IMG/VR virus record: IMGVR_UViG_3300010370_000030
Location: 17,808 to 81,807 of that record
Strand: one strand, 5' to 3'
DNA: 64,000 bases
DNA from: a virus
The translations under genes were made by a program, and so were the position numbers. The notes under the pieces were generated by a model. That model had not been told where the DNA came from and made no database searches. It was given only the letters and a program-made list of their open reading frames with translations. Position 1 is the first letter of the stretch. Each line of letters opens with the position of its first letter. Positions 27,816 through 57,636 of the stretch are shown piece by piece.

Positions 27816-30800
27816 GACAGATTGAAGAGTTAATATTCCCGCTTGTTAAAGCTCAATTCCCCGATTTCTATCAGGACGAAGGTCCTCGCTTTGTTTCTTT
27901 TGTTAAAGAATATTACAGGTGGATGGAGACTGAGGGGGAAGCATTAAACGCTTCGCGTAACTTACTTGATTACCGAAATATCGATAGCACGTCAAGTGAT
28001 TTTATAAAATATTTCAAGAACAAATACCTGTCTGGTGTGCCTCTTTCAACAGAAGCAAACACACAACTTGTTATTAAACACGCTCTTGATATCTATAAAT
28101 CCAAGGGAACAGAACGTGGTGTGCAGCTATTGATTCAAGGGCTTTTTAATGAAGAATCAAGAGTTGTTTTTCCCGGTCAGGATATTTTCAAAACATCTGA
28201 CGGCGTATGGATTAAGCCAACGTATCTTGAATTGACGGTTAAAGAAAGAACACAAAGTTTTGTTGGTCAAGAAATCGTAGGTTCGCGGAGTGGTGCTAAG
28301 GCATTTTTAGAAAGTCTCGTAACCAAACGACTTTCGGGCAAGTATCAACAAGTTGCTTATCTGAGTAGTGTCAGGGGTAATTTTGAAACCGGCGAGCTCA
28401 TAACGACGTCGTCAAACACATCTTTTGAAAACGCGCCGACTGTAATAGGGTCAATGACTTCGCTTACAGTGGCCGATGGCGGTGCTAATTTTGCCGTTGG
28501 GGATATTTTTGAAGTAACATCCACAAACGGTAAGCAAGGCAAAGCACGTGTAACCGAGGTTTCAAATGAAACCGGACGTGTCACTTTCATATATGTCGAT
28601 GCATTTACAAGTGGTGGTTGGGGATATAGCATTGACCATGCAAACGTTATCGTATCGGATAAAGTCCTAACTCTCACAAACATTGTTAACGCCAATGGGT
28701 TAATTACTGACTTCAGTCAATTTGAAACTGTTACACAACCTCTAGCTAATATTGGATATAGTACCGCAAGAGGGAACAATTATTATTTTAATGTCGGTAA
28801 CATTATAGAGAACTATAATTCTAATGGTGATGTTGTTGCTAACGCTGTTATAGCGGTTACGAGCAAAACAACAAACACTGTTGGATGGATTATAGTGGTA
28901 CCTAATGTTGGTAACATAGCATCCCAAGACACAACCTTTGCTGTACGTTCACAAGATCCTGATGAATCATCATTCAATCCGTCGTCGATCGGATTTGCTG
29001 AAAATACGTACACGTCTGTTTACAGCAAGACATACTCGAATTTGTTTACAGGTAACTTTTCTCGGTTATTCACTGCCACATATACGTCAGGATATGTGGG
29101 TGTATATGGTAGCACATACAGTTCTGTTTACACACAAGAATATTCCAGTACGTACAGTAGAGTATTTACTTCAGATTCTTATTCAGGTAATTTCGTTGGT
29201 GCTTTCACTAGCGGCGTCTACACGGGTACATATAGTCGAGTATTTACAACAGCTGGAGAAACAGGCTTTACTGGATCGTATTTACAGTACTTCATTGTCA
29301 CCTCACCCTACACAGGCTCTGCATATACATCGGCATTTACGGGTACATATACATCAGCAGGGTTCACAGGAGTATATAACCGTGTTTATACAGGCGACTA
29401 TAATACAGTATTTTCAAGCGCCTATACGGGTACGTTAGTACCAGGGGTTTATACAGGATCGTATGCTGGCTCCTATCTTGGAACATATGAAGGATCTTTC
29501 TCTGGCTCACGACCAAATCCGTTTGCTGGTGGAACATATGGTGGTTCGTATGTGGGACAATTTACTCGTGTATTTGTTGGATCGTATCAGGGCGTATATC
29601 AATCGTCTTATCAAAATCCATACAGCGGTGCAACATTCGCAATAGGAGTTAACTCCTATAATGTACCCAGTTATATTGGTAATTTTACAAAAGCATACAC
29701 AGGTGGATATATTGCATACCCTGTTTATACGGGTCTGAAAGCACTACCATATGGAGGTGTACCAGGAGTTACACAAAGTTATATAGGTGCTGGTTACACA
29801 GGATCTTATCTAGAATCATTCACGGCTAATTACAGTGGTGCATATGGTGGTGATTCATTTTCAAGAATTTTTACAGGATCATATCAGCTCGGTTCATTCA
29901 CAGGAAACTTCACATCTCAGTTTACTGGTAATTTTACTGGTTTGTACGGAGCAGCATACACGGGCACCTACAGTGATGTGTTCACAAACGAGTATGTGGG
30001 CAGTTTTTCACAAACATTCCAGGGCAACTTTACAACAATCTATACAAAAAATTACACAGGATTGTATAATGTCTTTTCCGGTGCCTACACGAGCACGTAC
30101 TCACAAGCATTTACTGCATTTACAGGGCAATATACAGGATTTACAGGGAATTACAGCTTAGCTTTCAGTGGTAACTATAATGCTTTCTCTGGGCAATACC
30201 TTACTTTTTCATTGTCGTTTGGTGGATACAGTTCAGCTTTTAGCGGCGTATATAACAATTCATTCACCAGCGGGTATGGTGGGTATACTGGCATCTTTAC
30301 AAGAACTTACACCAGCACCCAAGGAACAGCAAACGGTGTTATAGCTCAGTATTTTAGCAAAGCATATACAGGGTTATATGCGGGATCGGATTATACAAGC
30401 GCCTTTAATGGTTACACGAGAACATTTACAGTAACGCTTGATGGTGCGTTTACGAGTTCATATAGTGGCCAATTTACAGGCGCTTACGTAGGATACACAG
30501 GAACGTATCTAGCTCGAACATACACGGGCGTTTATGGTGCTTACAGTGGTGTATATCAAGATTCGCTGTTTACAGGTAATTATGGTTTCTTCACAGGTGC
30601 TTTTGGATCAGCCTACACAGGTCTCTTTGTAGGAGGTGGTAGTGCTCGAATAAACACATTAACAGCACATGAATTTAGTAACAACGATCTAGTACGCTAT
30701 CATGTTATGCCCGGTAACACATACATTCCTGAGTTGTCGATAGGAGCAGCATATTATGTTGTGAATGCGGTATCGGGATCAACGAGTTTGTGTTTATCTC

Positions 30801-45688: not shown

Positions 45689-48600
45689 ATGGCAAGACCA
45701 CTTAGAGCAAGATATGTTACAGCAAGTACAAGTGATGGTGTTCAGGAGATGTCGGATAGTGACATCAATGACCTTGTTATTCCTAGGATAACCAACTTAT
45801 TTTACGCTGCATCGAATACATCCGGCTACGGTAACAAACTCGAACTAAGAACTACACCACCAACTTGGAATTATGTTACTGGTGGGACTGTTCTTGATGT
45901 GTTTCCAACAGCTTTACCACCCATCGGGACACATCCAGTAACTTCTTCGTCAACAACATACACGTTGTACCAAAATCTTGACACTGCATTGACAACAAAC
46001 TTTGATCTTATAACCAAACCTGTTAAAACAGAGGCAAGTGGCGGTGTTCAAAAAATCCAGCAATTCTCAAACAATGATATTAGAGACGATATTCACAGCA
46101 AAGTTATTGCCGAAATATCTGCTGGAGCACAGGGAGCTTACTGGCTTGGAACTTCGCCACCAGGAACAGGCACGTGGATTATCGTATCTTCGATAAACGA
46201 CACGTTTGTCAACTCAACAAGCAACAGCACGCAAACAACTACATACAATTTATATCAGCGTTCTACAAATAGTGGGTATGGTACTAAGAGACCTCTAAAA
46301 GGTACAGCGAACGCTCTTACAGAAATGTCTGATGCTGAAATCGACACTATGGCAGCGGCTATACGTGATTGTATTGCGGCTGGGATTGGAAGGTATCAGA
46401 TATCCGCAACAACACCGACACCAGGAACGTGGGTAGCCCGTGGTTCTTTCACAGATACACAGAATGGTATTGTTGATACACCGTATGCAGGTAGTTACTT
46501 AGGAGTATTCACTGGAGCATTTACTGGAGAATATAGCCGGGCCTTCAGTGGAAATTATGCTGGATCATATAATCAAGCGTTTACTGGTAACTTCATTGAT
46601 ACCTCACGGTTTACCGGGACGTATCAGGGAACGTATCAGAATACGTTCACAGGCGTGTATTCAAGAGCGTTCTCAAGAGAAACAACAACAGGATTTACCG
46701 GAATTTACCAAAACACATACTCGGGTACATACTCGGGTGTATATACAGGAGCCTACACCAGAGCATACGCTGGTACATATTCCGGGCTATATCAAGGCGC
46801 TTCATTTGCAGGATCATATGATAACACGTTCGCAGGTTCATATGACCGCGCATTTACAGGATCTTTTGATAGAGTATATGCAGGTTCATATGACCGCGCA
46901 TTTACAGGATCTTTTGATAGAGCATATGCAGGTTCATATGATCGCGTGTTTGCAGGATCATATGACCGTACGTTTACCTTTGAATGGAGTGGTTCTTACA
47001 GTGGCGCAGCGTTTGCAGGGTCATACGACCGTGCGTTTGCAGGGTCATACGACCGTGCGTTTTCGGGCAATTACACCAGAACATACACGGGATGGTATAC
47101 AACACAATGGACAAGAAATTATGCAGGCGGCTATGCTGGCCCAGCCTGGACTTTATCATACACAGGAACAAGGGAATATTCCTTTTCTCGAGTGTTTCAG
47201 ACATTGGTTCCGGTAGGAGTCAATGGGCCGGTTTATACAAGAAATTTCTTTGCGACAGAATTTACTAAAGGAACAACAGGAATCTTTACACAAGATCTCC
47301 AGTATTATAGAACTGGTTATTTTACCAGTGAAGTAAATCGAACGTTTACCGGTGATTACACAGGAAATTTCACAGTCGATTACACCGGTACATACTCACG
47401 TAATTTTTCAGGTACACGTGAAGGAATAACTTATGGGAGCACGTTTTCAGGCGTGTATGCTTTATTTAATTATACCGGGGACTTCACAAAAACAGCTCAA
47501 TTCTCAGGCATTGCCTACACGAGGAAATTTACTAGAAGTTATCAAGCGATCTTCGCAACTCAATACACAAGGACGTTTACAGGTTCTAGGGATAAATCTT
47601 ATTTAAACCCTTATAATAGCACATACTACTCAGGATCGTACGCCGGATCATATGCAGGTTCTGAAGCGTATGGAGGAGCTCCTTATTACACGGGGCTTCG
47701 CGATAGCGCTAGCTACTCAAGAGCCTTCACGGCAACATGGAGTGGTTTGAATGATGGTGAGGTGTACGCGCGTGCGTTCACAATCCTTGAAAGCTATTGG
47801 TTCTTTACCGCTACAAACTATACAAAAACATGGGCCGGTACATATACAGGGGCATTCAGTGGATTCTCATACGCACGTGTTTTCCAAAGGATATTTTCTG
47901 GTGCATATTCAAGACCATATGCAACAACTTATTCACGAGTTTTTACAAGATTTGTTCCAATATATTGGACGGCTATCTATTCAAGAGTCTTCAGTGGCGA
48001 TTATACGGCCACATACACAAGGGATTTAACGGCTACATATACCGCAACTTGGTCAAGAATTTTTGCAGGCGATTATACAAGTCCATACCCTTCATATCAA
48101 GCTACATTCACAGGGTCGTATACAAAGAACGAAACCTTTGCCTCGCCAATATTCCAAGGATTTTCGGGATCCTATGATCGCGTGTGGTCGGGCGATTATA
48201 CCCGAGCGTTTTCTGGTGATTATACTCGTGCGTTTTCTGGTAATTATACGCGAAATTACACTGGTGCATATACAGGCGATTACACACGCGCGTTTTCAGG
48301 AGATTATACCCGAGCGTTCTCAGGAGATTATACCCGAGCGTTCTCAGGAGATTATACTCGCGCATTTTCAGGCGATTATACCCGAGCGTTCTCAGGAGAT
48401 TATACCCGAGCGTTCTCTGGCAACTACACACGTGCGTTCTCAGGTAGCTATACGAGAACATACACGGGTAATTGGACCGGAGAATTCAACTCCACGTTTT
48501 CTGGGCCATATGTAGGATCCTTTATAGGTAGTTACATTGGATATTGGACGGGTGTTTATTCGCGGATATTCACCGGAGCATATACAGGAGAGTTTACAGG

Positions 48601-48829
48601 TGGGTTTATCGGTAATTTCACAGGTGGTTATGTAGGAACATACTCACGCATATTCACAGGTGCATACACAGGTCAATTCACTGGCATCTATACCGGGGCA
48701 TTTACAGGCGCATTCAGTGGTAATTATGCAAATAATTTTACACGTTTATTCACAGGGGCATACTCAGGCTTAACGGTCACCGGCACTACGACGACGACTA
48801 CATACACATTATGGGTTAGAACAGCTTGA
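45689..48829 (+). CDS. Giant tetrapeptide-repeat virion protein A (1046 aa)
   Basis: Three RPL..QEMS..DI..GTW..DT..LYQ modules; about 760 aa of [YF]xxx repeats; ends YTLWVRTA. Confidence 0.85.
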   Translation: MARPLRARYVTASTSDGVQEMSDSDINDLVIPRITNLFYAASNTSGYGNKLELRTTPPTWNYVTGGTVLDVFPTALPPIGTHPVTSSSTTYTLYQNLDTALTTNFDLITKPVKTEASGGVQKIQQFSNNDIRDDIHSKVIAEISAGAQGAYWLGTSPPGTGTWIIVSSINDTFVNSTSNSTQTTTYNLYQRSTNSGYGTKRPLKGTANALTEMSDAEIDTMAAAIRDCIAAGIGRYQISATTPTPGTWVARGSFTDTQNGIVDTPYAGSYLGVFTGAFTGEYSRAFSGNYAGSYNQAFTGNFIDTSRFTGTYQGTYQNTFTGVYSRAFSRETTTGFTGIYQNTYSGTYSGVYTGAYTRAYAGTYSGLYQGASFAGSYDNTFAGSYDRAFTGSFDRVYAGSYDRAFTGSFDRAYAGSYDRVFAGSYDRTFTFEWSGSYSGAAFAGSYDRAFAGSYDRAFSGNYTRTYTGWYTTQWTRNYAGGYAGPAWTLSYTGTREYSFSRVFQTLVPVGVNGPVYTRNFFATEFTKGTTGIFTQDLQYYRTGYFTSEVNRTFTGDYTGNFTVDYTGTYSRNFSGTREGITYGSTFSGVYALFNYTGDFTKTAQFSGIAYTRKFTRSYQAIFATQYTRTFTGSRDKSYLNPYNSTYYSGSYAGSYAGSEAYGGAPYYTGLRDSASYSRAFTATWSGLNDGEVYARAFTILESYWFFTATNYTKTWAGTYTGAFSGFSYARVFQRIFSGAYSRPYATTYSRVFTRFVPIYWTAIYSRVFSGDYTATYTRDLTATYTATWSRIFAGDYTSPYPSYQATFTGSYTKNETFASPIFQGFSGSYDRVWSGDYTRAFSGDYTRAFSGNYTRNYTGAYTGDYTRAFSGDYTRAFSGDYTRAFSGDYTRAFSGDYTRAFSGDYTRAFSGNYTRAFSGSYTRTYTGNWTGEFNSTFSGPYVGSFIGSYIGYWTGVYSRIFTGAYTGEFTGGFIGNFTGGYVGTYSRIFTGAYTGQFTGIYTGAFTGAFSGNYANNFTRLFTGAYSGLTVTGTTTTTTYTLWVRTA
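46817..47075 (+). repeat. 24/48-bp tandem repeats encoding (AGSYDRAF)n
   Basis: GCAGGTTCATATGACCGCGCATTT / ACAGGATCTTTTGATAGAG units. Confidence 0.85.
48190..48445 (+). repeat. 24-bp tandem repeats encoding (SGDYTRAF)n
   Basis: TCAGGAGATTATACCCGAGCGTTC repeated with synonymous changes. Confidence 0.92.
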
Positions 48830-48835
48830 GAGAAA

Positions 48836-51800
48836 ATGTCACTTCGTCCACTCTACTATAGCACATCGTTATCTGGTTTACAGGAGATGTCCAACACGGA
48901 CATTGATGGTTATATTGTAAACGTGATTGGTACCGATTTTGCTTCAACGGAAGATATTGGATCTCTTATAGTTCAAGATCCAGGTGACCCGGTTCCCGCT
49001 AATTCTACTTCTATTGGTACATGGGCCGATACACACTATGATCAACAAATAGGTGATCATCCTGTTTCCGAAGCAAACCTCGTCTATTCAAACACGACCA
49101 TTTATCAAAGAATGAGTGGTGGGCCTTTGGCTGATCCATTTATGGTGCGTCCTATTTGCTGGAATGATACACTAAATGGATTACAGCAGATGGCGAACGC
49201 TGATTTAGACACGACCATTATTGCAAGAGCTGTTTCGTATATTGTCAATGGAGGTGTGGGGTCATATGTTTTGCAACCTTCAGCACCAGCAAGTGGCACG
49301 TGGGTTGCGCGAGGACGTCTTAAAAATACAGAGCGTCCATATTATGCTAATGAAACGTTTCTATGGCAAAAAACGTCTGAAAGTCCAAGTGGTTCTGTAA
49401 AGCCTTTGAAATGGAATGTTGGTGCTGTGCAAGAAATGTCGAACAATGACATTAAAACATTAACACACCGAGCAAGGAATTACATTGCTTCAACAGGAAT
49501 AGGGACATATCAGTTATCAACAAGTACTCCTACTTCCGGTGGTACGTGGGTTGAGGCAGGTAGCGGATTTGCTGACACGCGTCAAGAAATAAGACCACAA
49601 ACTTACAATGCTCAAGTGTACACAGCAACTTTTTCTGGTGCATACACGGGAGCATTTACAGGCCAATATCAAGGCAATTTTACTGGGACGTATGGCATTC
49701 CGTACACCCGTGATTTTACAGGTTCATTTGTTGATACGTTCACAGGCGTATTCAACCAACAATTTACTGGTGCTTTTACTGGTGGATATGCTACGGCTTA
49801 TACTGGTTCATTTAATCAAGAGTTCACCGGCCAATTCACAGGCACATATACAGGTGGTTACACCGGTACTTTTATCGGATCGTACACGGGTGATTATATA
49901 GGGCAATTTACAGGAGCTTATTCCTCACCGTATGTTGGGAGCTTCACTGGTACATATGCTGGAAAGTTTAACCAGGAATTCACGGGAGCATTCAGTGGAT
50001 TTTACCAAGGTACGTACAATCAAAATTTTACGGGCGATTTTGTTGGTGGGTTTACGGGTGAGTTCTCAGGTAAGTATGCCCAGGAATTCACAGGGTCTTA
50101 TAGCTCTAACTTTACAGCAGCTTATAGTGGTGCGTTTACGGGTCAGTTTACAGGATTATATGCAAACACATTTACAGGCGAGTTCGTAGGCAAGTATGTA
50201 GGATTTTTCACTGGCGTATACTCAACCACGTATGCTAATACTTTTACCGGTAGTTACACGGGCATATACACCGGTGCCTACAGTCTGGCTTTTACTGGAG
50301 ACTTCACTGGATTATTTAATCAAGTATTTGTAGGAAACTACGCTGGTAAGTATGCAGGAACTTTCGACTATCCGTTCTCAGGTACGTTTGTTGGTACATA
50401 CAGCAATGTATTCTCTGCAGTATATACGGGTAATTACACAGGCATTTATAATCAACAATTCACTGGTGCGTTCACAGGTATTTTCAATCAGATCTTTACG
50501 GGCGAGTTCGTTGGTAAGTATTCGGGAGATTATAACCAAACATTTACGGGAGATTTCGCTGGAACATATAGTAGATTGTTTACCGGAAGCTATACGGGTA
50601 ACTATACAGGTGTATACAATCAGGTCTTCACAGGCTCTTTTGCCGGTAAATATGCAGGATCTTTCACAGGTGCGTTTGCTGGTGGATACACGGGATCATT
50701 TACTGGATCCTATACAGGTGCTTATACAGGGTTGTATTCAGGTGCATATGCAGGAAGTTATCAAGGTAATTTCACAGGTGATTATACAACCGCAGCCGTA
50801 ACAAATTTACTAGCATATTCCGATAGCCTCGATGGTGGTGCCTGGCAAGGATATTGTGCAGCTAATATGAACAACGTCACGTACAAGACGACAGACATCC
50901 TTGCACCGGACGGTACATACAATGCCTTGAAAGTTGTTATGGATGGAAGCACAACGTGTGGTGGTGGCGGTACATGGGGTATGTTGTACGGAGCTTCGCA
51001 GATCTTTACATCAGGGCAACCATATACAGTAAGTATTTGGGCGCGATGTGCCACAGGTACAACAGGTATGCAATTAGGTTTGAACGACTATTACAGTACG
51101 GGTGTTACACTAACTACATCGTGGCAGCGTTTTTCTTTTACAGCGACACCGACAGGACCAGGGGCACCATTAGATCGAGGTCTTCAATTTGTGCGTCATG
51201 ATTCAACACCCGGTGTTACAATTTACGTATGGGGTGCTCAGCTTGAGACCGGTAGCACAATGTCGCGGTACGTACAAACAAGCACTACATCAGCCACATC
51301 ACCGGCAGGAACATATGTCGGGACTTTCACTGGGCCTTATTCGGGTAGTTATACGAGGGCCTTTACCGGAGCATACACTGGCATATATGCAGGTGGCTAT
51401 GTAGGATACTTCACAGGTGGTTATACTGGTGGTTATGTTGGCTCGTTCACAGGAATTTACTCTGGTGGATACACGAGAGCCTTCTCAGGAATTTACACGG
51501 GTTCTTACACAGGAACGTATGCCGGAACATACACAGGATTATACTCTGGTGGATATGTTGGTTCGTTTACTGGGATATACTCTGGTGGGTATGTTGGTTC
51601 ATTTACTGGGATATACTCTGGTGGGTATAGCAGGCTGTTCACTGGAGTTTATACTGGTTCCTACACAGGAACATATGCCGGAACATACACGGGAATATAT
51701 TCCGGTGGTTATGTTGGATATTTTACAGGTGATTATGCAGGTGGGTATGTTGGATATTTTACAGGTGGTTATGCAGGTGGGTATGTTGGATATTTTACAG

Positions 51801-54800
51801 GTGGTTATGCAGGTGGTTATAGTGGGCTATTTACTGGAGTTTATACAGGATCATACACAGGAGCGTATGCTGGTACATACACTGGTATCTATGCAGGTGG
51901 GTATGTAGGGTATTTTACTGGGATTTATGGCGGTACGTATAGTAGACTGTTTACAGGTATCTACTCAGGAAGTTATCAAGGCAATTTTTCTGGAACATAC
52001 GCTGGCACATATAGCCGATTATTTACAGGTATCTACTCAGGAAGTTATCAAGGTAATTTTACCGGAAGTTTTGCCGGAACTTATAGTAGATTGTTTACTG
52101 GTCTTTACTCAGGAAATTACCAAGGTAACTTCACTGGAGTATATGCTGGTACATATAGTAGATTGTTTACTGGAGCCTACGCGGGATCATATTCACGAGG
52201 ATTCACAAGGGTATTTATTGGTACTTATTCAAGAGTATTTAACAACACGTTCGCTGGAAATTATGTAGGTGTTTTTACGCCTACGTTTGCAGGGACGTAT
52301 ACAAGAGGGTTCACCGGTTCTTATGCAGGGTCTTATCAAAATCCCTTCAGTGGTGTAGTTTATGTAGGGTATTATGCAGGAACATACAACAGGGCATTCT
52401 CTGGAACGTATCAGGGAGCTTTCACGCGTATATTCACTGGATCTTATTCGAGATTGTTTCAGGATCCATATTCGGGCGTAACCTATAGCGGGTCATATGC
52501 AGGAAATTACGTTGGAATATATGGAGCCTCATGGTCACGTATATTTACTGGATCATATGCAGGGTTTTTCACAGGTGAATTTACCGGTCCGTATGCATCT
52601 ACCTACACCGCAACATGGTCAGGATTATTCTCAGGAAGTTATCAAGGTAACTTTAGTGGAAGTTTTGCCGGAACTTATAGTAGATTGTTTACTGGTTTTT
52701 ACTCAGGAAATTACCAAGGTAATTTTACCGGAAGTTTTGCCGGAACTTATAGCAGATTGTTTACAGGCGATTACTCTGGAAATTATCAAGGTAACTTTTC
52801 CGGAATCTTTGGTGGTACATATAGCAGATTGTTTACAGGCGATTACTCTGGAAATTATCAAGGTAACTTTTCCGGAACATATGCTGGTACTTATGCCCAA
52901 ACATTTACCGGAGCTTATGCGGGTGGTTACACAGGATATTATTCAGGAGCGTATGCAGGCTCATATTCAGGATCCTATAACAACACCTTTACTGGAGCGT
53001 TTGCTGGTACTTATGCCCAAACATTTACCGGAGCTTATGCGGGTGGTTACACAGGATATTACTCGGGAGCATATGCAGGATCATATTCAGGATCTTACAA
53101 CAATACTTTTACCGGCATATATTCTGGGGCTTACGCCCAAACGTTTACCGGTATATACTCGGGTGCTTACGCTCAAACATTCACCGGTATATATTCTGGG
53201 GCTTACGCCCAAACGTTTACCGGAGCTTATTCGGGTGGTTACACAGGATATTATTCAGGAGCGTATGCAGGTTCCTACTCAGGATCTTATAACCAAACGT
53301 TTACAGGCGCTTTTGCAGGCACGTATCAGCAAACGTTTACTGGCGGGTACTCGGGAACATATCAACAAACGTTCACTGGAACTTATTCGGGTGGTTACAC
53401 AGGATATTACTCGGGAGCATATGCAGGATCATATTCGGGTTCATATAACCAAACGTTTACAGGCGCTTTTGCAGGCACGTATCAACAAACGTTCACAGGT
53501 ATTTACTCGGGAACGTATCAACAAACGTTTACAGGTGGGTACTCAGGAACGTACTCGGGATCATACAATCAAGCCTTTACGGGCACTTTTTTAGGTAGCT
53601 ACCAAAGTTCTTTTACAGGATTTTACTCGGGCACATATAGCCGCGCATTTTCAGGAAGTTATACGGGTGCATATGCGGGAGTCTATGCAGGCGCATATGC
53701 TGGAACCTTCAATCAAGTGTTCACTGGTTCGTTTGTTGGAGTTTACACAGGCGTATTCACGGGAAATTATTCCGGAGGCTATACCGGTGCGTTTACAGGA
53801 ATATACGCTGGTGCATATGCAGGTAACTACCAAGGTAGTTTTACTGGAAATTATTCAGGCGGGTACACTCGAGCATTTACGGGAACATATACAGGAATTT
53901 ATGTTGGTAAGTATACCGGATCATTTACGGGTGTATATTCGACAACTTTCACAGGTGCGTTCACAGGCATCTACGCAGGCGGGTACGGAGGAAGTTTTGT
54001 GGGGGATTTCACCGGAGCGTTTGTGGGTAAGTATACGGGGTCGTTCACAGGTGTTTACACAGGTAACTATGCGGGCAATTACACAGGAACATTTGCTGGT
54101 GTTTACTCAAGTCCATTTACAGGAACTTTTGCTGGGGGATATGCTGGAGCATATGTCGGTTCATATTTAGGCTTTTTCACGGGTAATTTTACGGCTGAAT
54201 ACGCAGACATATATGCAGGTTTTTATACCGGTGTGTATAGCGGATCGTTCAGTGGTTCGTACAATCAATCGTTTACACGAAACTTTACGTTCGACTATAC
54301 AGGAACGTTTTCGGGTCCATACGTAGGGTTTTTTACAGGAAGCTATTCGCGAATATTCAGTAGATTCTTTACCGGTGCATACACAGGCCAATTCACTGGT
54401 GCTTATTCTGGCGCCTATAGTCAGGCATTTACAGGGTTCTTCTCAGGCACATACACAGGCGTCTACAGCCAAGCGTTCACTGGTACCTACACGGGAATTT
54501 TCAATCAGGCGTTCTCAGGTAAGTATGTAGGCCTTTTTAATCAAGTGTTCACAGGTATGTTTGTTGGTTCATACAACCAACAATTCACAGGCGCATTTAG
54601 TGGAGATTATACTGCTGTATACAGTGGGGCATATAGTCAAGCGTTTACAGGTGCGTTTAGTGGTAAGTACACAGGTCAATTTTCTGGTGCCTATACAGGA
54701 GCGTTTGGTTCGTTGTTTACGGGAGTGTATTCTTCATTGTTCACTGGAACATATTCAAGTTTATTTACGGGTTCATTTAATCAAACACCTATCTACACGA

Positions 54801-55105
54801 GCGTATACTCGAGACCATATGCCGGTGTGTATGGGCAAACATTTAGCAGTGCAGTCTACTCTGGTGCAACATATGCACAAGCGTATACAGGAGAATATAC
54901 TGGGTCTTACACGGGGACTTCTATTTTCGGTTTTGTAGGGCAGTTTACAAAAGCATTTACTGGTTTATTGGGTTCTTTTTCGTCTTTATTTACAGGACTA
55001 TATACTAACATAACAGGGCAGTATTTAGCAGCTTGGTCGGGTTTGACAATCATATCAACACCTGAAACAATTCAAACACTTAAACTTTGGGTACGAACAG
55101 CATGA
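48836..55105 (+). CDS. Giant tetrapeptide-repeat virion protein B (2089 aa) with inserted carbohydrate-binding-like domain
   Basis: N-terminus paralogous to protein A; ends LKLWVRTA; globular insert at 50801-51280 (TNLLAYS..APDGT..YTVSIWAR..LTTSWQRFSFT..IYVWGAQLE). Confidence 0.85.
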   Translation: MSLRPLYYSTSLSGLQEMSNTDIDGYIVNVIGTDFASTEDIGSLIVQDPGDPVPANSTSIGTWADTHYDQQIGDHPVSEANLVYSNTTIYQRMSGGPLADPFMVRPICWNDTLNGLQQMANADLDTTIIARAVSYIVNGGVGSYVLQPSAPASGTWVARGRLKNTERPYYANETFLWQKTSESPSGSVKPLKWNVGAVQEMSNNDIKTLTHRARNYIASTGIGTYQLSTSTPTSGGTWVEAGSGFADTRQEIRPQTYNAQVYTATFSGAYTGAFTGQYQGNFTGTYGIPYTRDFTGSFVDTFTGVFNQQFTGAFTGGYATAYTGSFNQEFTGQFTGTYTGGYTGTFIGSYTGDYIGQFTGAYSSPYVGSFTGTYAGKFNQEFTGAFSGFYQGTYNQNFTGDFVGGFTGEFSGKYAQEFTGSYSSNFTAAYSGAFTGQFTGLYANTFTGEFVGKYVGFFTGVYSTTYANTFTGSYTGIYTGAYSLAFTGDFTGLFNQVFVGNYAGKYAGTFDYPFSGTFVGTYSNVFSAVYTGNYTGIYNQQFTGAFTGIFNQIFTGEFVGKYSGDYNQTFTGDFAGTYSRLFTGSYTGNYTGVYNQVFTGSFAGKYAGSFTGAFAGGYTGSFTGSYTGAYTGLYSGAYAGSYQGNFTGDYTTAAVTNLLAYSDSLDGGAWQGYCAANMNNVTYKTTDILAPDGTYNALKVVMDGSTTCGGGGTWGMLYGASQIFTSGQPYTVSIWARCATGTTGMQLGLNDYYSTGVTLTTSWQRFSFTATPTGPGAPLDRGLQFVRHDSTPGVTIYVWGAQLETGSTMSRYVQTSTTSATSPAGTYVGTFTGPYSGSYTRAFTGAYTGIYAGGYVGYFTGGYTGGYVGSFTGIYSGGYTRAFSGIYTGSYTGTYAGTYTGLYSGGYVGSFTGIYSGGYVGSFTGIYSGGYSRLFTGVYTGSYTGTYAGTYTGIYSGGYVGYFTGDYAGGYVGYFTGGYAGGYVGYFTGGYAGGYSGLFTGVYTGSYTGAYAGTYTGIYAGGYVGYFTGIYGGTYSRLFTGIYSGSYQGNFSGTYAGTYSRLFTGIYSGSYQGNFTGSFAGTYSRLFTGLYSGNYQGNFTGVYAGTYSRLFTGAYAGSYSRGFTRVFIGTYSRVFNNTFAGNYVGVFTPTFAGTYTRGFTGSYAGSYQNPFSGVVYVGYYAGTYNRAFSGTYQGAFTRIFTGSYSRLFQDPYSGVTYSGSYAGNYVGIYGASWSRIFTGSYAGFFTGEFTGPYASTYTATWSGLFSGSYQGNFSGSFAGTYSRLFTGFYSGNYQGNFTGSFAGTYSRLFTGDYSGNYQGNFSGIFGGTYSRLFTGDYSGNYQGNFSGTYAGTYAQTFTGAYAGGYTGYYSGAYAGSYSGSYNNTFTGAFAGTYAQTFTGAYAGGYTGYYSGAYAGSYSGSYNNTFTGIYSGAYAQTFTGIYSGAYAQTFTGIYSGAYAQTFTGAYSGGYTGYYSGAYAGSYSGSYNQTFTGAFAGTYQQTFTGGYSGTYQQTFTGTYSGGYTGYYSGAYAGSYSGSYNQTFTGAFAGTYQQTFTGIYSGTYQQTFTGGYSGTYSGSYNQAFTGTFLGSYQSSFTGFYSGTYSRAFSGSYTGAYAGVYAGAYAGTFNQVFTGSFVGVYTGVFTGNYSGGYTGAFTGIYAGAYAGNYQGSFTGNYSGGYTRAFTGTYTGIYVGKYTGSFTGVYSTTFTGAFTGIYAGGYGGSFVGDFTGAFVGKYTGSFTGVYTGNYAGNYTGTFAGVYSSPFTGTFAGGYAGAYVGSYLGFFTGNFTAEYADIYAGFYTGVYSGSFSGSYNQSFTRNFTFDYTGTFSGPYVGFFTGSYSRIFSRFFTGAYTGQFTGAYSGAYSQAFTGFFSGTYTGVYSQAFTGTYTGIFNQAFSGKYVGLFNQVFTGMFVGSYNQQFTGAFSGDYTAVYSGAYSQAFTGAFSGKYTGQFSGAYTGAFGSLFTGVYSSLFTGTYSSLFTGSFNQTPIYTSVYSRPYAGVYGQTFSSAVYSGATYAQAYTGEYTGSYTGTSIFGFVGQFTKAFTGLLGSFSSLFTGLYTNITGQYLAAWSGLTIISTPETIQTLKLWVRTA
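51390..53570 (+). repeat. Nested 36-, 60- and 120-bp coding repeat blocks
   Basis: GGTGGGTATGTTGGATATTTTACAGGTGGTTATGCA x3; YSRLFTGxYSGxYQGNF blocks; near-exact 120-bp duplication at about 52883/53003. Confidence 0.88.
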
Positions 55106-55545
55106 AACGAACTATTGTAAATCCGCATTGGGTAAACAATGCAAGAACGGTCATCTCTGCTGAATTTCATTATGATGATGGTAGAGTAGCGCAGGCAACT
55201 ATTTCGGAATCGGATGTAACAAATCCTGATCTCGTTGAAATTAAAACTAAGTTCACGAACGAACAGCTTGAAGCTAATACACGTAAAAAAATTCAAGAAA
55301 TAAATGCTGAGCGTGAGCGTAAGCACCAAGAAGAGCTTGCAAAACAGCAACGTAAACAACAGGAAGAACTTTTTGCTGCTAAATTAGAAATTTTTGAAAT
55401 TGAAGCAATTAAGAATTCGGATAACAGAGCTCTAAAAACAAAAATTCGAAAATCTAAGAGTGGCGTTGAAGCTATGGCTTGGGCGTCAGCTTTACTTCTT
55501 GATGTTGCACAGAAGGAAATGTCTGCTAATTCAACAACGGAGTAA
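55102..55545 (+). CDS. Hypothetical protein, possible fibre chaperone
   Basis: ATGA-coupled to protein B; LFAAKLEIFEIEAIKNS...K.KIRKSK. Confidence 0.65.
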   Translation: MKRTIVNPHWVNNARTVISAEFHYDDGRVAQATISESDVTNPDLVEIKTKFTNEQLEANTRKKIQEINAERERKHQEELAKQQRKQQEELFAAKLEIFEIEAIKNSDNRALKTKIRKSKSGVEAMAWASALLLDVAQKEMSANSTTE

Positions 55546-55547
55546 GA

Positions 55548-56282
55548 ATGAATATTCGTAATGGTTTTTTGATAGTCGCTTCGCAGCTCAAAGAATATTT
55601 GGATTCGGCTAATTATCTAGCCAACAGTATCAAAGATTATTATCCTGATGCTCATATAACGCTCTTCGTAACACCAAACTTGGAGCGCTATGCTGACCGT
55701 AGCGTTTTTGACATCGTAATGTCTGAAGATGTACCTAATCACGTACGTACTAAATTGTATGCTCTTTCTAGAACTCCATATACTGAACTTACTGTTTATG
55801 TTGATGCCGACATGGAATGTATGCACACTGATGTATCAAAGGTATGGGATCAAATGCCCGAAGATTGTGATATCCTTATTACAAGGATACGTCCATACAA
55901 CGGAAAGGAAGATCGTTGGCCCGGTGGTAAAACTATTCCCAAAGGTCGTATGGTTTATCATGGTGGGTTTTTCATGTATAGATCGAATCCACAAACACTT
56001 GAATTTATGCGTAGGTGGTGGGAAGATTATCGACTCCAAAGAAGTGAGCCATGGCCATACCCCGAAGAAGAATGCCGCCAATCTTTTGCTCAATGGGACC
56101 AATTTACATTTTGGAAGCTGATGGCAGTAGATAATTTGCCCGTCAAAGTGGATGTATTCAAAGATGATGCGCGGTGGAATTTTGTTAACGGATATTTTCC
56201 TAATGAGACAAAGGAACCTATCATATTCTGGCATCATACAATCCCATCCAAACATGAGAACATAGGACTTACAAAGAAATGA
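55548..56282 (+). CDS. GT-A fold glycosyltransferase-like protein
   Basis: SIKDYYP, RTKL.AL..TPY, YVDAD (DxD), GGFFMY, WDQF, RWN. Confidence 0.78.
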   Translation: MNIRNGFLIVASQLKEYLDSANYLANSIKDYYPDAHITLFVTPNLERYADRSVFDIVMSEDVPNHVRTKLYALSRTPYTELTVYVDADMECMHTDVSKVWDQMPEDCDILITRIRPYNGKEDRWPGGKTIPKGRMVYHGGFFMYRSNPQTLEFMRRWWEDYRLQRSEPWPYPEEECRQSFAQWDQFTFWKLMAVDNLPVKVDVFKDDARWNFVNGYFPNETKEPIIFWHHTIPSKHENIGLTKK

Positions 56283-56911
56283 AAGAAATTCCGATTAACA
56301 ATGCTGAACTTAAATCTATCCTCGACAGGTGGTTGAATGTCCTGCTAAAAGTAGATAGATCAAAATATCCTTACAACGTAGGTGTTGGTAAAGATGGTCC
56401 TTTTACACCGGAATATGCATGTGGTATGGAGTATTTGAATCACATGCAAAGTAAAAAAGTGGATGGGTTTCCAGAGTCGACTTTAGGTGTTGACCTAATG
56501 AAATTCAATCCACCACATCGGTCACTTTCTGAAGCGTTGTTTAAGCTCGATCATGAATTATTGAACTGGTCAGGTTCTAGGAACAATGCGGTGAAAATGT
56601 TATATCCAAAAGGTGGATATATGGGGTGGCATCACAATGCTAATGCACCTGGTTATAATATCCTTCTATCCTGGTCTGAAAAAGGAACGGGGTTTTTTAG
56701 GTATCAGGATCCAATTACAAAAGAAATCATAACAATGCATGATACGCCGGGATGGACTTGTAAAGTCGGATATTACGGTCCGTGGCATGAACCGAACCGG
56801 ATCTATTGGCACTGTGCAAGTGCACATGAGGAGGAAAGAGTAACGCTTGGGTATATTATTCCGCACGAGGGAATGTGGAATAATATGTGCGAAGATATTC
56901 AATATGGGTGA
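56279..56911 (+). CDS. 2OG-Fe(II) oxygenase/cupin-like protein
   Basis: YPKGGYMGWHHNAN, YWHCA, RVTLGY. Confidence 0.65.
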   Translation: MKEIPINNAELKSILDRWLNVLLKVDRSKYPYNVGVGKDGPFTPEYACGMEYLNHMQSKKVDGFPESTLGVDLMKFNPPHRSLSEALFKLDHELLNWSGSRNNAVKMLYPKGGYMGWHHNANAPGYNILLSWSEKGTGFFRYQDPITKEIITMHDTPGWTCKVGYYGPWHEPNRIYWHCASAHEEERVTLGYIIPHEGMWNNMCEDIQYG

Positions 56912-57636
56912 TGTTTATTGAAAATTGTGTCGTAATGGTGCTGCTGGATTGGTCCGTTAAAAAGAACCACGGGTATTCTCTTCGCTGTTTCTATAAATTT
57001 ACTCTCCCGGTAAGCACCATTAACATCGTAAAGATAATTCTCCGCATTATCAACGCCATAAAGATACGAATAAAATTTTCTCGTCGGAAAATATCCAATA
57101 CCAATACCTATATTGTCTTTTTCGTAAAATAAAAATGAATCCATACCCCATCGGTATTTTGTCATAAAAAATTCAGGATCTTTTATCACATAATCCCAAA
57201 TTTTTTGCGTTTTATCATTTTTCCATGTCATGCAGCTACTGTTGAAGGGATGGTGAAAGACAGGAAAACCATAGTCCCATTTGCGTCTCCATTCAGCTTC
57301 AATCAGAGTCAACTCATTATTATTACACAACACGATATCGTTAATGTTATGTTTAATGACAACATCGAGGTCAAAGAAAACGCGGTTACCACGAGGTAGA
57401 ATGCTATTGATGTGGTCACTGAATAAAAATAGCTTGTTGTAGACAACTATATCGAATTCGTTTTCCACGTACTCGATTATGTTGATGTTGCTATTGATAC
57501 CCTCGGGATTGTCCGTGTAACAAAACATATTAAACGGTGTTGTTATATGCTTACTACACATCCTAAATAAATTATTAACCATGTAGCTGGGGTACTTTGT
57601 GCCAACTTTAACACATAAAATTGTGAGTGTTTCCAT
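56899..57636 (-). CDS. GT-A fold glycosyltransferase-like protein (inverted)
   Basis: CVKVGTKY..VNNL, FCYTD, YNKL.LF, FFDLDVVI, NSSCM.W. Confidence 0.8.
   Translation of the reverse strand: METLTILCVKVGTKYPSYMVNNLFRMCSKHITTPFNMFCYTDNPEGINSNINIIEYVENEFDIVVYNKLFLFSDHINSILPRGNRVFFDLDVVIKHNINDIVLCNNNELTLIEAEWRRKWDYGFPVFHHPFNSSCMTWKNDKTQKIWDYVIKDPEFFMTKYRWGMDSFLFYEKDNIGIGIGYFPTRKFYSYLYGVDNAENYLYDVNGAYRESKFIETAKRIPVVLFNGPIQQHHYDTIFNKHHPY

What the first reader, a model, noticed from the sequence alone, without database searches (positions are those of the whole stretch)
48836..55105. 2089-aa paralog with nested A-B-C-centre-C'-B'-A' repeat blocks
Seen: same split third module and LWVRTA end as protein A. 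Block order: NQxF/VGKY/YSTT-rich (about 49600-50790), GGYVGYF (about 51390-51920), YSRLFTGxYSGxYQGNF (about 51940-52170), irregular centre with YQNPFSG/FQDPYSG (about 52330-52480), YSRLF..YQGNF again (about 52630-52880), GGYTGYY/AQTF (about 52890-53570), then NQxF/VGKY/YSTT again. This is a second, independent case of palindromic block order. The symmetry is only approximate in the outer blocks. Inference: a very long hairpin appendage with aromatic ladders, silk- or amyloid-like in composition.
Basis: partly seen in the sequence, partly recalled or inferred. Interest (0 to 1): 0.88.

Follow-up and report, generated by a model that had tools for sequence, protein, structure and literature searches.

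The report
Giant fold-back hairpin phage fibre
A 2089-residue tail-region protein of an uncultured freshwater T4-like phage most likely runs about 190 four-residue Phe/Tyr-Gly repeats out from a small base domain, turns, and runs back in register as one very long two-stranded ribbon, a fibre design found in no protein family, solved structure or paper searched.

Summary
ORF 48836-55105 (+) encodes 2089 aa. It has three ~85-aa N-terminal modules, about 390 [FY]-x-G-x tetrads, a 173-aa CBM-like insert, and a C-terminal strand (...LWVRTA) that completes the split third module.

Evidence for an out-and-back hairpin:
- About 100 complete relatives share the base domain and closing strand, with inserts from about 10 to 3,050 aa.
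- AF2 of a 339-aa relative docks the C-terminal strand onto module 3.
- Phe-tetrads face Phe-tetrads at one sharp mirror register over both arms (58 pairs, Fisher 3e-14; direct-order control 1e-4). That register continues across the globular insert.
- A 1796-aa ortholog shows the same (1e-28, arms 172/171 tetrads), with the B and B' blocks swapped between arms.
- Single-sequence AF2 of aa 1000-1385 is all beta, with one break at 1210-1220, the apex that this register implies.

Like-with-like block symmetry alone was not significant against chunk shuffles (p about 0.1-0.2). The register near the tip, the oligomeric state and the virion position are unresolved.

There is no Pfam, PHROG or PDB match to the base domain or stalk, and no paper describes them. 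This scan has found the same family before on other DNA, about ten times.

The parts
48836..55105 (+). Whole gene, 2089 aa plus stop: hairpin-fibre protein B
   Evidence: ORF list and translation. Orthologs lie in two other viral contigs.
48836..49618 (+). Base domain, aa 1-261: modules 1 and 2 and the first part of module 3 (to ...GTWVEAGSGFADTR...)
   Evidence: 335 representative homologs. AF2 of the homolog P0012 gives pLDDT 86 and pTM 0.78, with three beta-beta-helix-beta-beta-beta modules. The best fold matches are beta-prism-like MABP and MACPF P2 domains, Z 5.3-6.5 only.
49619..50794 (+). Arm 1, outer part (block A), aa 262-653: 98 in-phase tetrads
   Evidence: Phase runs. Collinear with the orthologs. 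Phe:Phe register +9 with arm 2.
50795..51313 (+). Globular insert in arm 1, aa 654-826: CBM-like, tail-protein-type beta-sandwich
   Evidence: phrog_5939 'tail protein' E 1.9e-14. Pfam CBM_4_9 E 0.0032, below the cut-off. Weak PDB sequence hits to baseplate and head-spike proteins. Absent from both orthologs. The arm register is the same on both sides of it.
51314..51937 (+). Arm 1, block B (b-type: GGYVG[YS]FTG, GGYTRAF), aa 827-1034
   Evidence: Its best BLASTP matches lie in arm 2 of the ortholog P0207.
51938..52195 (+). Arm 1, block C (24-aa unit YSRLFTGxYSGxYQGNFTGx), aa 1035-1120
52196..52627 (+). Irregular tip zone, aa 1121-1264. It holds the only two one-residue phase shifts (YQNPFSGVV at 1167-1175, FQDPYSGVT at 1208-1216) and the family turn motif YYAG at 1179-1182. 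The apex is either near aa 1213 or near aa 1192.
   Evidence: The AF2 break is at aa 1210-1220. Register +9 implies an apex near aa 1213. The zone is conserved in both orthologs.
52628..52885 (+). Arm 2, block C', aa 1265-1350
   Evidence: Up to 95% or more identity with C in 24-aa windows. TRF period 72 nt.
52886..53605 (+). Arm 2, block B' (q-type: YAQTFTG, YQQTFTG, GGYTGYYSGAYAG, YN[NQ]TFTG), aa 1351-1590
   Evidence: Its best BLASTP matches lie in arm 1 of P0207. Volume correlation with B is r -0.69 at offset +6 and -0.55 at +9.
53606..54787 (+). Arm 2, outer part (block A'), aa 1591-1984. Arm 2 as a whole (aa 1217-1984) is 192 in-phase tetrads.
54788..55030 (+). Irregular C-terminal tract, aa 1985-2065, out of the 4-residue phase
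   Evidence: It is 71% identical to the ortholog over aa 1985-2089. Its role is unknown.
55031..55102 (+). Closing strand, aa 2066-2089 (...GLTIISTPETIQTLKLWVRTA), which completes module 3
   Evidence: The same end occurs in nearly all complete homologs. In the AF2 model of P0012 the C-terminal strand E309-337 pairs with E237-257 at pLDDT 96-98.
45689..48829 (+). Paralog 'protein A', 1046 aa, with the same architecture
   Evidence: Tandem A and B genes also occur in L011, L012 and L013.
55087..56911 (+). Conserved trio directly downstream: 152-aa coiled-coil-like protein, 244-aa GT-A-like protein, 210-aa protein of unknown family
   Evidence: The trio follows the fibre gene here, in L012, in L013 and in phage C48C1. 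Only weak, sub-threshold Pfam hits link the 244-aa protein to glycosyltransferases. The 210-aa protein has no Pfam match.

Best explanation
The gene encodes a virion fibre of a T4-like myovirus from fresh water.

Base domain. A compact domain is made of three tandem ~85-aa modules in one chain. It probably anchors the protein to the baseplate or tail.

Stalk. The last beta-hairpin of the third module is expanded to about 1,800 residues. The chain runs out as arm 1 (about 185-194 tetrads of [FY]-x-G-x), turns in an irregular tip at about aa 1167-1216, and runs back as arm 2 (192 tetrads). The final strand (...LWVRTA) then closes module 3. The two arms lie antiparallel and in register: Phe-tetrads face Phe-tetrads, Tyr-tetrads face Tyr-tetrads, and a bulky residue at position 3 or 4 of one arm tends to face Gly, Ala or Ser in the other. 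This gives one face an aromatic/glycine ladder. If the ribbon is straight, the stalk would be up to about 250 nm long.

Evolution. Length changes through matched duplications in both arms. Partner blocks can swap arms as long as they stay opposite each other.

Side domain. A carbohydrate-binding-like domain is looped out of arm 1 without disturbing the register. It is a likely adhesin.

What is shown: the split module, the mirror register, the block swap, and the beta propensity.

What is inferred: the two-stranded ribbon geometry, a monomeric stalk, the fibre or adhesin role, and the attachment site.
For: Context. The gene lies between baseplate wedge genes (gp6/7/8-like) and a T4 neck protein gene. 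The contig is an IMG/VR viral contig.

Split module.
- The base domain has 335 representative homologs.
- Nearly all complete homologs end in ...LW[VLI]R[TI]A.
- Inserts range from about 10 to about 3,050 aa.
- AF2 of a 339-aa member docks the C-terminal strand onto module 3.
- The turn motif [YF][YF][GSA]G sits at 0.45-0.55 of the insert in 29 of 67 proteins, against 11.9 expected. P0001 has it at 0.51.

Register in P0001.
- Phe:Phe pairing at mirror offset +9: 58 pairs out of 80 Phe-tetrads in arm 1 and 76 in arm 2, Fisher 3e-14. The next offset and the direct-order control both give 1e-4.
- 13 of 13 pairs in the B zone.
- p 2e-6 for the outer arms, beyond the globular insert.
- Zero bulky:bulky pairs against 6.8 expected in B/B'.
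- Volume correlation r -0.69 or -0.55.
- Mirror global alignment z 3.5, 0 of 200 shuffles reach it.

Orthologs.
- P0207 has arms of 172 and 171 tetrads, Phe:Phe p 1e-28, and all four quarters are best at the same offset.
- P0208: Phe:Phe p 1e-13.
- The b and q blocks are exchanged between arms in P0207 but remain opposite each other, with the same 10 / 3x3 / 10-tetrad unit pattern in both arms.

AF2 fragment, aa 1000-1385. pLDDT 72.8, nearly all strand, with one break at aa 1210-1220. That is the apex implied by offset +9.
Against: - No coordinates of the AF2 model could be read, so pairing in the model is inferred only from the single break. The model used one sequence, and the tip of the short homolog had pLDDT about 45.
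- In the C/C' zone Phe:Phe is best at offsets +2 and -1 (7 of 8 pairs), not +8 (5 of 8). Either the apex lies near aa 1192 and arm 2 carries a 10-tetrad bulge, or the register slips near the tip.
- Like-with-like block symmetry is not significant against chunk shuffles.
- The size-complementarity score was chosen after looking at the ortholog.
- A free two-stranded ribbon of about 250 nm with an exposed aromatic face has no precedent. It may need partners: other copies, protein A, or the gp7 tract.
- Some family members have many turn-like SGSRNY motifs, or hetero-type arms, which suggests meanders rather than one hairpin.
- No virion proteomics, microscopy or expression data exist.
- Copy numbers of units in 51732-52072 and 52688-53454 are not confirmed by an independent assembly.
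Confidence: 0.7

Rival explanations
1. The chain does go out and back, because the split module forces its ends together. But the arms do not form one two-stranded ribbon. They associate with arms of other subunits (for example three or six copies forming a multi-stranded shaft, as in the trimeric T4 gp37 needle), with protein A, or with the gp7 tract. Alternatively each arm folds further into a meander or solenoid.
For: - An exposed aromatic face along about 190 rungs would be sticky.
- Two paralogs and a gp7 protein with the same tract lie in one tail module.
- Relatives have repeated SGSRNY turn-like motifs.
- Phage fibres are as a rule trimers (T4 gp37: PMC6957217).
Against: - The base domain is a three-module pseudo-trimer within one chain, which argues against a need for three chains.
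- The mirror register and the block swap demand arm 1:arm 2 contacts, though these could also be met inside a bundle.
- Super-repeat periods vary (12, 24, 40, 52, 64 aa), so there is no constant solenoid coil length.
- AF2 gives long uninterrupted strands.
Confidence: 0.2
2. The tract is a low-complexity, largely disordered or amyloid/silk-like Tyr/Gly region. The mirrored order is a by-product of how tandem arrays grow and homogenise, not of intramolecular pairing.
For: - The composition is G, T, Y, S, F, A rich.
- Like-with-like symmetry is not significant against chunk shuffles.
- Tandem arrays often have homogeneous middles and degenerate edges (general knowledge).
Against: - Array growth does not predict a single-offset Phe:Phe mirror register over about 180 tetrads (3e-14; 1e-28 in the ortholog).
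- It does not predict avoidance of bulky:bulky pairs.
- It does not predict equal arms (172/171).
- It does not predict a reciprocal block swap that keeps partners opposite each other.
- The aromatic phase is kept 100% over hundreds of residues.
- AF2 predicts strand at pLDDT about 80 without an alignment.
Confidence: 0.05
3. The block pattern, or part of it, is an artefact of short-read assembly of repeats.
For: In Logan contigs of the best-holding runs, 51732-52072 and 52688-53454 are broken into pieces of about 100 nt at about double depth. Copy numbers there are therefore unverified. One 40-aa unit in arm 2 has no partner in one of the two possible registers.
Against: - DNA repeat units are only 76-96% alike, with periods of 36-192 nt.
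- A single 3344-nt contig spans block A, the globular insert and two thirds of B. The centre and A' are also spanned, with 0-1 differences.
- Two orthologs from other metagenomes show the same architecture and balanced arms.
- The one 'joint' seen is explained by words shared with the paralog.
Confidence: 0.05

Closest known systems
Needle (domains D10/D11) of the T4 long tail fibre tip protein gp37 (PMC6957217, read; crystal structure cited there)
   Same: The chain goes out to a tip and comes back. D10 is built from residues 811-881 and 1010-1026, which flank D11. The shaft is an elongated antiparallel beta structure in a phage fibre, and a Gly in a strand packs against a Phe (G921/F970).
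   Different: gp37 is an obligate trimer, giving a six-stranded shaft of about 130 residues out and back, held by seven iron ions on His motifs. P0001 has 4 His in 2089 aa, a 4-residue Phe/Tyr-Gly repeat and about 190 rungs per arm. Its anchor is a three-module single chain. It shows no sequence similarity to any PDB chain.
Beta-prism-like MABP and MACPF C-terminal (P2) domains (8b6v, 2qp2, 3tow, 6sb1)
   Same: These are the best structural matches to the three-module base domain (Z 5.3-6.5, 109-120 residues aligned). They also have threefold internal pseudo-symmetry.
   Different: The Z scores are in the range of common arrangements. Foldseek finds nothing, there is no sequence relation, and the modules here carry a 16-residue helix each.
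CBM_4_9-type carbohydrate-binding beta-sandwiches and PHROG 5939 tail-protein domains
   Same: The globular insert, aa 654-826, matches phrog_5939 (E 1.9e-14) and weakly matches Pfam CBM_4_9.
   Different: This applies only to the insert, which is absent in the two orthologs. The Pfam score is below the gathering cut-off.
Cross-strand aromatic pairs and 'aromatic rescue of glycine' in small beta-hairpins and sheets (tryptophan zippers; Merkel and Regan 1998; from my own knowledge, not checked in a paper here)
   Same: Aromatic residues alternating with Gly on one face of paired antiparallel strands is the local chemistry proposed here.
   Different: Those cases are peptides or single sites of a few residues. 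Here the pattern would repeat about 190 times in a natural protein.
3347-aa hypothetical protein WJE88074.1 of phage C48C1 (OQ984149, Kyanoviridae)
   Same: It is the only member found in deposited phage genomes. It has the same three modules and the same end (...TYTLYVRVA), and it is followed by the same trio of genes.
   Different: It is annotated only as hypothetical. Its tetrads are Arg-rich, and six or more globular domains interrupt the tract. I did not test its arms for register.

Membership tests
Uncharacterised 'split-module hairpin fibre' family (no Pfam or PHROG entry; defined here by its homologs) | Three tandem N-terminal modules homologous to those of the family | tested here: met
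   phmmer with aa 1-262 gave 335 representatives at E <= 1e-3 and 30 at E <= 1e-30. No Pfam or PHROG hit.
Uncharacterised 'split-module hairpin fibre' family | C-terminal closing strand ...G.T[VI]...T....LW[VLI]R[TI]A that completes module 3 | tested here: met
   P0001 ends in ...GLTIISTPETIQTLKLWVRTA. The same end occurs in nearly all complete homologs. AF2 of P0012 docks this strand at pLDDT 96-98.
Uncharacterised 'split-module hairpin fibre' family | The insert between module 3 and the closing strand is made of 4-residue aromatic repeats, with two arms in mirror register | tested here: met
   Arms of 185 and 192 in-phase tetrads. Phe:Phe mirror register p 3e-14.
Uncharacterised 'split-module hairpin fibre' family | Central turn motif [YF][YF][GSA]G at the midpoint of the insert | tested here: inconclusive
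   YYAG at aa 1179-1182 lies at 0.51 of the insert. But the motif also recurs in blocks B and B', and the register points to an apex near aa 1213.
T4 gp37-type needle | His-x-His iron-binding repeats along the shaft | tested here: not met
   Only 4 His in 2089 aa.
T4 gp37-type needle | Sequence or profile similarity to gp37 or gp12 collar and needle | tested here: not met
   The profile of 60 family members found no PDB chain at E <= 1. No Pfam or PHROG fibre family matched the whole protein.
T4 gp37-type needle | Homotrimer | not testable with these tools
   No multimer prediction or experiment was available. The three-module single-chain base argues for a pseudo-trimer.
Pfam CBM_4_9 (globular insert only) | Score above the gathering cut-off | tested here: inconclusive
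   18.3 bits against a cut-off of 25.9, E 0.0032. phrog_5939 'tail protein' E 1.9e-14.
Collagen-like or polyglycine-II fibres | Gly at every third residue | tested here: not met
   The period is 4, not 3: 374 of about 470 aromatic spacings equal 4, with Gly at position 3 of the tetrad.
Beta-solenoid repeat proteins (pentapeptide, hexapeptide, autotransporter type) | Constant coil length with turn-specific residues | tested here: inconclusive
   Super-repeat periods vary (36-192 nt). The AF2 fragment has strands of up to 125 residues. Foldseek hits to curli and autotransporter helices have E >= 0.23 and TM <= 0.3.
Amyloid or silk-like cross-beta assemblies | Intermolecular stacking of identical strands | not testable with these tools
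   Only the composition is alike. The mirror register points to intramolecular pairing.

The most novel reading that the evidence does not exclude
The protein is the polypeptide counterpart of an RNA stem-loop. It would be a single chain whose two ~190-rung arms pair antiparallel by a simple code: Phe-tetrad with Phe-tetrad, Tyr with Tyr, bulky with small. It would evolve by compensatory changes, namely matched duplications in both arms and reciprocal swaps of partner blocks. It could loop out whole domains without losing register. The result would be a length-tunable, roughly 250-nm single-molecule fibre of a structural class not yet described.
Probability: 0.5. Interest if true: 0.9.

Novelty: categorically new. 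Interest (0 to 1): 0.82.

Why it matters
If the reading is right, phages have a way of building fibres that differs from the known trimeric beta-helices, beta-spirals, coiled coils and collagen-like rods. The fibre would be one chain folded back on itself over hundreds of residues, with a readable pairing rule.

That would have three consequences:
- It would give protein science a natural, very long two-stranded beta ribbon to study for stability, twist and mechanics.
- It would give phage biology a large unannotated family of tail-module proteins. There are hundreds of clusters in aquatic metagenomes and one in a deposited phage genome. Their length and side-mounted binding domains probably set how the virus reaches and holds its host.
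- It would give protein design a modular stalk that accepts inserted domains.

This instance adds three things to the earlier sightings in this scan:
- A block swap between orthologs that keeps partners opposite.
- A globular domain looped out of one arm with the register intact.
- An AF2 turn that coincides with the apex deduced from the sequence.

Tried and rejected
- Nucleotide search of the gene against deposited phages found no match.
- Pfam on the whole protein gave only a sub-threshold Gly-zipper hit, a composition artefact. PHROGs gave nothing for the whole protein or the base domain.
- Foldseek of the base-domain model against PDB and BFVD found nothing at E <= 0.001. Foldseek of the stalk fragment model against PDB also found nothing.
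- A PDB sequence search with the family profile found nothing.
- Three literature searches (C48C1; cyanophage tail fibre Tyr/Gly repeats; tetrapeptide repeat phage fibre) returned nothing relevant.
- A mirror dot plot by residue identity gave only about 60% matches, which come from Y and G, and showed no unique centre.
- A single-offset association scan with my first arm limits gave only a broad hump.
- The like-with-like feature-profile symmetry was not significant against chunk shuffles.
- My first window-similarity script had a phase error and was redone.
I studied neighbourhoods through the search for related loci instead.
- AF2 model coordinates could not be read, so strand pairing in the model could not be listed.
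- Logan contigs cannot confirm unit copy numbers in two repeat stretches.
- The 'joint' 50785 to 54374 is not a variant. It reflects words shared with the paralog.
- Protein A and its orthologs have many one-residue phase breaks in arm 1. I did not analyse their register.
- The 210-aa downstream protein has no Pfam match even at E 5, so 'oxygenase' is not confirmed here.

Full report
**What is there.** The window is part of an 81.8-kb IMG/VR viral contig that CheckV rates 36% complete. The genes around the finding are those of a T4-like myovirus:
- gp6/7-like and gp8-like baseplate wedge proteins.
- A DUF4815/VrlC-like protein.
- Fibre-like proteins.
- Further on, a T4 neck protein.

The nearest cultured relatives of the gp8-like protein are Caulobacter phage Cr30, Sinorhizobium phages and cyanophages, at 28-38% identity. 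ORF 48836-55105 (+) is open and gives 2089 aa. It directly follows a 1046-aa paralog, 'protein A' (45689-48829).

**Anatomy.**
- Residues 1-261 hold three ~85-aa modules.
- From aa 262 to 1984 the chain is a run of four-residue units [FY]-x-G-x.
- Of about 470 spacings between successive aromatic residues, 374 equal 4.
- In the in-phase runs, position 1 is aromatic in every tetrad.

The runs are as follows:

| Stretch | Residues | Tetrads |
|---|---|---|
| Arm 1, outer | 262-653 | 98 |
| Arm 1, inner | 827-1174 | 87 |
| Central run | 1176-1215 | 10 |
| Arm 2 | 1217-1984 | 192 |

The only phase shifts are single extra residues after YQNPFSGV (aa 1175) and FQDPYSGV (aa 1216). Residues 654-826 are a non-repetitive domain. 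Residues 1985-2065 are irregular. The last 24 residues end in ...TLKLWVRTA.

**The insert sits inside a domain.** A phmmer search of 1.8 billion representatives with aa 1-262 found 335 relatives.
- Nearly all that are complete end in the same strand...LW[VLI]R[TI]A.
- The stretch between the third module and that strand ranges from about 10 to about 3,050 residues.
- Each module ends in a hairpin: '...GTW....D..(loop)..T..LW.K/R'. In module 3 the loop of that hairpin holds the repeats.
- AF2 of a 339-aa member with a 60-sequence alignment gave pLDDT 86 and pTM 0.78. It shows three beta-beta-helix-beta-beta-beta modules, and the C-terminal strand (309-337, pLDDT 96-98) is paired with strand 237-257. 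The tip of its short hairpin was of low confidence.
- In short and mid-size members a motif [YF][YF][GSA]G lies at the midpoint of the insert far more often than chance: 29 of 67 proteins against 11.9 expected.

So the two ends of the 1,800-residue tract of P0001 must meet at the base domain. The topology is out-and-back.

**Is the block order mirrored beyond chance?**
- Tests that ask for like facing like were weak. The mirror profile of tetrad composition has its single positive peak at aa 1194, but 11-20% of chunk shuffles reach that score.
- A circular-shift test placed the mirror arrangement near zero offset at the top of 374 arrangements.
- A mirror dot plot by identity showed nothing sharp.

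Notes from earlier follow-ups of this scan, on other genomes, spoke of a complementarity code. I took that as a lead to test, not as evidence.

**Orthologs.** A scan of IMG/VR with the base domain found two close relatives with the same gene order:
- L012 carries a 1796-aa ortholog, P0207, whose base domain is 79% identical.
- L011 carries P0208, cut by the contig end at 1934 aa, whose base domain is 88% identical.

Neither has the globular insert. P0207 has arms of 172 and 171 in-phase tetrads.

Block maps read outward from the centre show that the b-type block (GGYVGYFTG, GGYTRAF) always lies opposite the q-type block (YAQTFTG, GGYTGYYSGAYAG, YNNTF). In P0001 and P0208 the b-type block is in arm 1 and the q-type in arm 2. 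In P0207 they are exchanged. BLASTP confirms this:
- P0001 block B matches P0207 arm 2.
- P0001 block B' matches P0207 arm 1.
- A, the centre, A' and the tail stay collinear.

In P0207 both arms show the same unit pattern (10, 3x3, 10 tetrads) at mirror positions. In both proteins the partners recur tetrad by tetrad: Y[AQN][QN]T with Y[SA]GG, Y[AS]GA with Y[VI]G[YS], and FTGx with FTGx. This is a compensatory change at the level of blocks.

**Register.** Counting only whether a tetrad starts with Phe or Tyr gives one sharp mirror offset:

| Protein | Mirror offset | Phe:Phe pairs (of arm 1 / arm 2 Phe-tetrads) | Fisher p |
|---|---|---|---|
| P0001 | +9 | 58 (80 / 76) | 3e-14 |
| P0207 | +1 | 58 (67 / 64) | 1e-28 |
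| P0208 | -5 | 53 (72 / 73) | 1e-13 |

- For P0001 the next-best offset gives 1e-4, and so does the best of 300 offsets in the direct (non-mirror) order.
- The B zone of P0001 gives 13 of 13 pairs.
- The outer arms of P0001 beyond the globular insert give p 2e-6 at the same offset. The insert is therefore a pure excursion.
- In P0207 each quarter of the arm is best at the same offset, +1.

Side-chain volume at positions 3 and 4 is anticorrelated between partners:
- r -0.69 at offset +6 and -0.55 at +9 in B/B' of P0001.
- r -0.37 over 170 tetrads of P0207.
- In B/B' there are no bulky:bulky pairs against 6.8 expected.

A global alignment of the arms with a complementarity plus Phe:Phe score gives 166.9 in mirror order, 123.9 in direct order, and 140.5 +/- 7.5 for chunk-shuffled arm 2, with 0 of 200 shuffles reaching the observed score. 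For P0207 the z-score is 6.5. I chose the volume score after seeing P0207, so it is less independent than the Phe/Tyr test.

**Structure prediction of the stalk.** AF2 on aa 1000-1385, without an alignment, gave pLDDT 72.8 (75-84 in the arms). The model is almost entirely strand, with one element of 125 residues and a single low-confidence break at aa 1210-1220. Offset +9 places the apex at about aa 1213, the same spot.

**Where exactly is the tip?** Two readings remain.
- (i) The apex is at FQDPYSGVT, aa 1208-1216. The arms are then about 194 and 192 tetrads, with no large bulge. AF2 agrees.
- (ii) The apex is near aa 1192, between the two Q[ND]P.SGV motifs, as the register of P0207 implies for the homologous motifs. 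Phe:Phe in the C/C' zone fits better here (7 of 8 pairs at offsets +2 or -1, against 5 of 8 at +8). One extra 40-aa q-unit in arm 2 would then bulge out.

Because C/C' repeat every three tetrads in their Phe pattern, slippage by multiples of three tetrads costs little. I cannot decide between the two.

**The globular insert.** Residues 654-826 match PHROG 5939 ('tail protein', E 1.9e-14), weakly match Pfam CBM_4_9 (below the cut-off), and match baseplate or head-spike chains in the PDB at E 0.02-0.05. The 3347-aa relative in phage C48C1 carries six or more such interruptions. The stalk therefore looks like a carrier for binding domains.

**Assembly.**
- DNA repeats have periods of 36-192 nt and 76-96% matches.
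- The gene's words are held at 93-94% by two aquatic metagenome runs and in part by many freshwater runs.
- Logan contigs of those runs span 48836-51731, 52073-52687 and 53455-55105 with 0-1 differences.
- The same contigs break into pieces of about 100 nt at roughly double depth in 51732-52072 and 52688-53454.
- The one apparent joint is explained by words shared with the paralog.

The architecture is safe, since three independent contigs share it. Exact unit numbers in the two repeat stretches need long reads.

**Neighbourhood.** In this window, L012, L013 and phage C48C1 the fibre gene is followed at once by three genes: a ~150-aa coiled-coil-like protein, a ~245-aa GT-A-like protein and a ~210-aa protein. 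L011, L012 and L013 also have the tandem A and B fibre genes. The glycosyltransferase hits are below threshold, and the 210-aa protein matches no Pfam family. A role in modifying or assembling the stalk is possible but untested.

**Comparison with what is known.** The nearest described design is the needle of T4 gp37, where the chain runs to the tip and back. There, residues 811-881 and 1010-1026 together form the collar domain, in a trimer held by seven iron ions (PMC6957217). P0001 shares the out-and-back idea and glycine-aromatic packing. It lacks the His motifs and any sequence relation, is about seven times longer per arm, and has a single-chain three-module base. The base domain resembles beta-prism MABP and MACPF P2 domains only at Z 5.3-6.5. 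I found no family, structure or paper that describes the stalk.

The same family has been reported by this scan on about ten other genomes. One of those reports concerns a 5391-nt gene, the same length as the ortholog gene in L012 that I analysed here independently; I take it to be that gene. My tests agree with those reports and add the three points named under why it matters.

**Limits.** Everything here is computational. The oligomeric state, the real length and stiffness, the position on the virion, the host and the function are inferred. The length figure (up to about 250 nm) assumes 0.33 nm per residue in a straight ribbon and is an upper bound.

Noticed in passing
window 55087-56911; L012 15373-17191; L013 14431-16267; L010 (phage C48C1) 10139-12019: A trio of genes directly follows the hairpin-fibre gene in all four loci whose 3' flank is available: a ~150-aa coiled-coil-like protein, a ~245-aa GT-A-like protein and a ~210-aa protein with a WHHNANAPG motif. 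Identity to the window's proteins runs from 30-34% in C48C1 to 83-89% in L012. The 210-aa protein has no Pfam match.
   Followed up: partly
window 50795-51313: The CBM-like globular domain is present in this phage only. Both close orthologs (L011, L012) go straight from block A into block B at that point. It is therefore a recent gain or loss, and it lies in a place where the arm register is unaffected.
   Followed up: yes
window 27812-33256 (aa ~395-945 of the gp6/7-like protein): The baseplate wedge protein carries an insert of the same aromatic tetrad repeats, including YQNPYSG. Many database proteins with Pfam PF23786 (baseplate wedge) of 1280-1815 aa share this. Its in-phase runs are short, at most 15 tetrads.
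   Followed up: partly
window 52334-52579 (aa 1167-1248): The tip zone is itself a direct repeat of about 41 aa: YQNPFSGVV-YVGYYAGTY... and FQDPYSGVT-YSGSYAGNY.... The arrangement is conserved in both orthologs.
   Followed up: partly
window 45689-48829 and orthologs L012:7133-9994, L011:6446-9994: Protein A varies in length between close relatives (953, 1046 and 1182 aa). Its arm 1 has one-residue phase breaks about every 7 tetrads, while its arm 2 runs 49-70 tetrads unbroken. I did not test its register.
   Followed up: no
short family members, e.g. P0020, P0013, P0074: Some 350-380-aa relatives have quite different repeat flavours in the two arms (FNENAxNY opposite xGGxNY; YYQYA opposite NYQAT). 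Others have identical ones (FTSPNYTT x3 on each side of the turn). This suggests the pairing rule allows both hetero- and homotypic rungs.
   Followed up: no
whole gene, sequencing runs X1-X24: Words of the gene occur almost only in aquatic, freshwater and lake metagenomes from 18 studies. The phage lineage appears to be a freshwater one.
   Followed up: partly
window 57599-58237: A 212-aa ORF downstream of the trio has a weak, sub-threshold match to a methyltransferase domain (Methyltransf_25, E 0.016).
   Followed up: no
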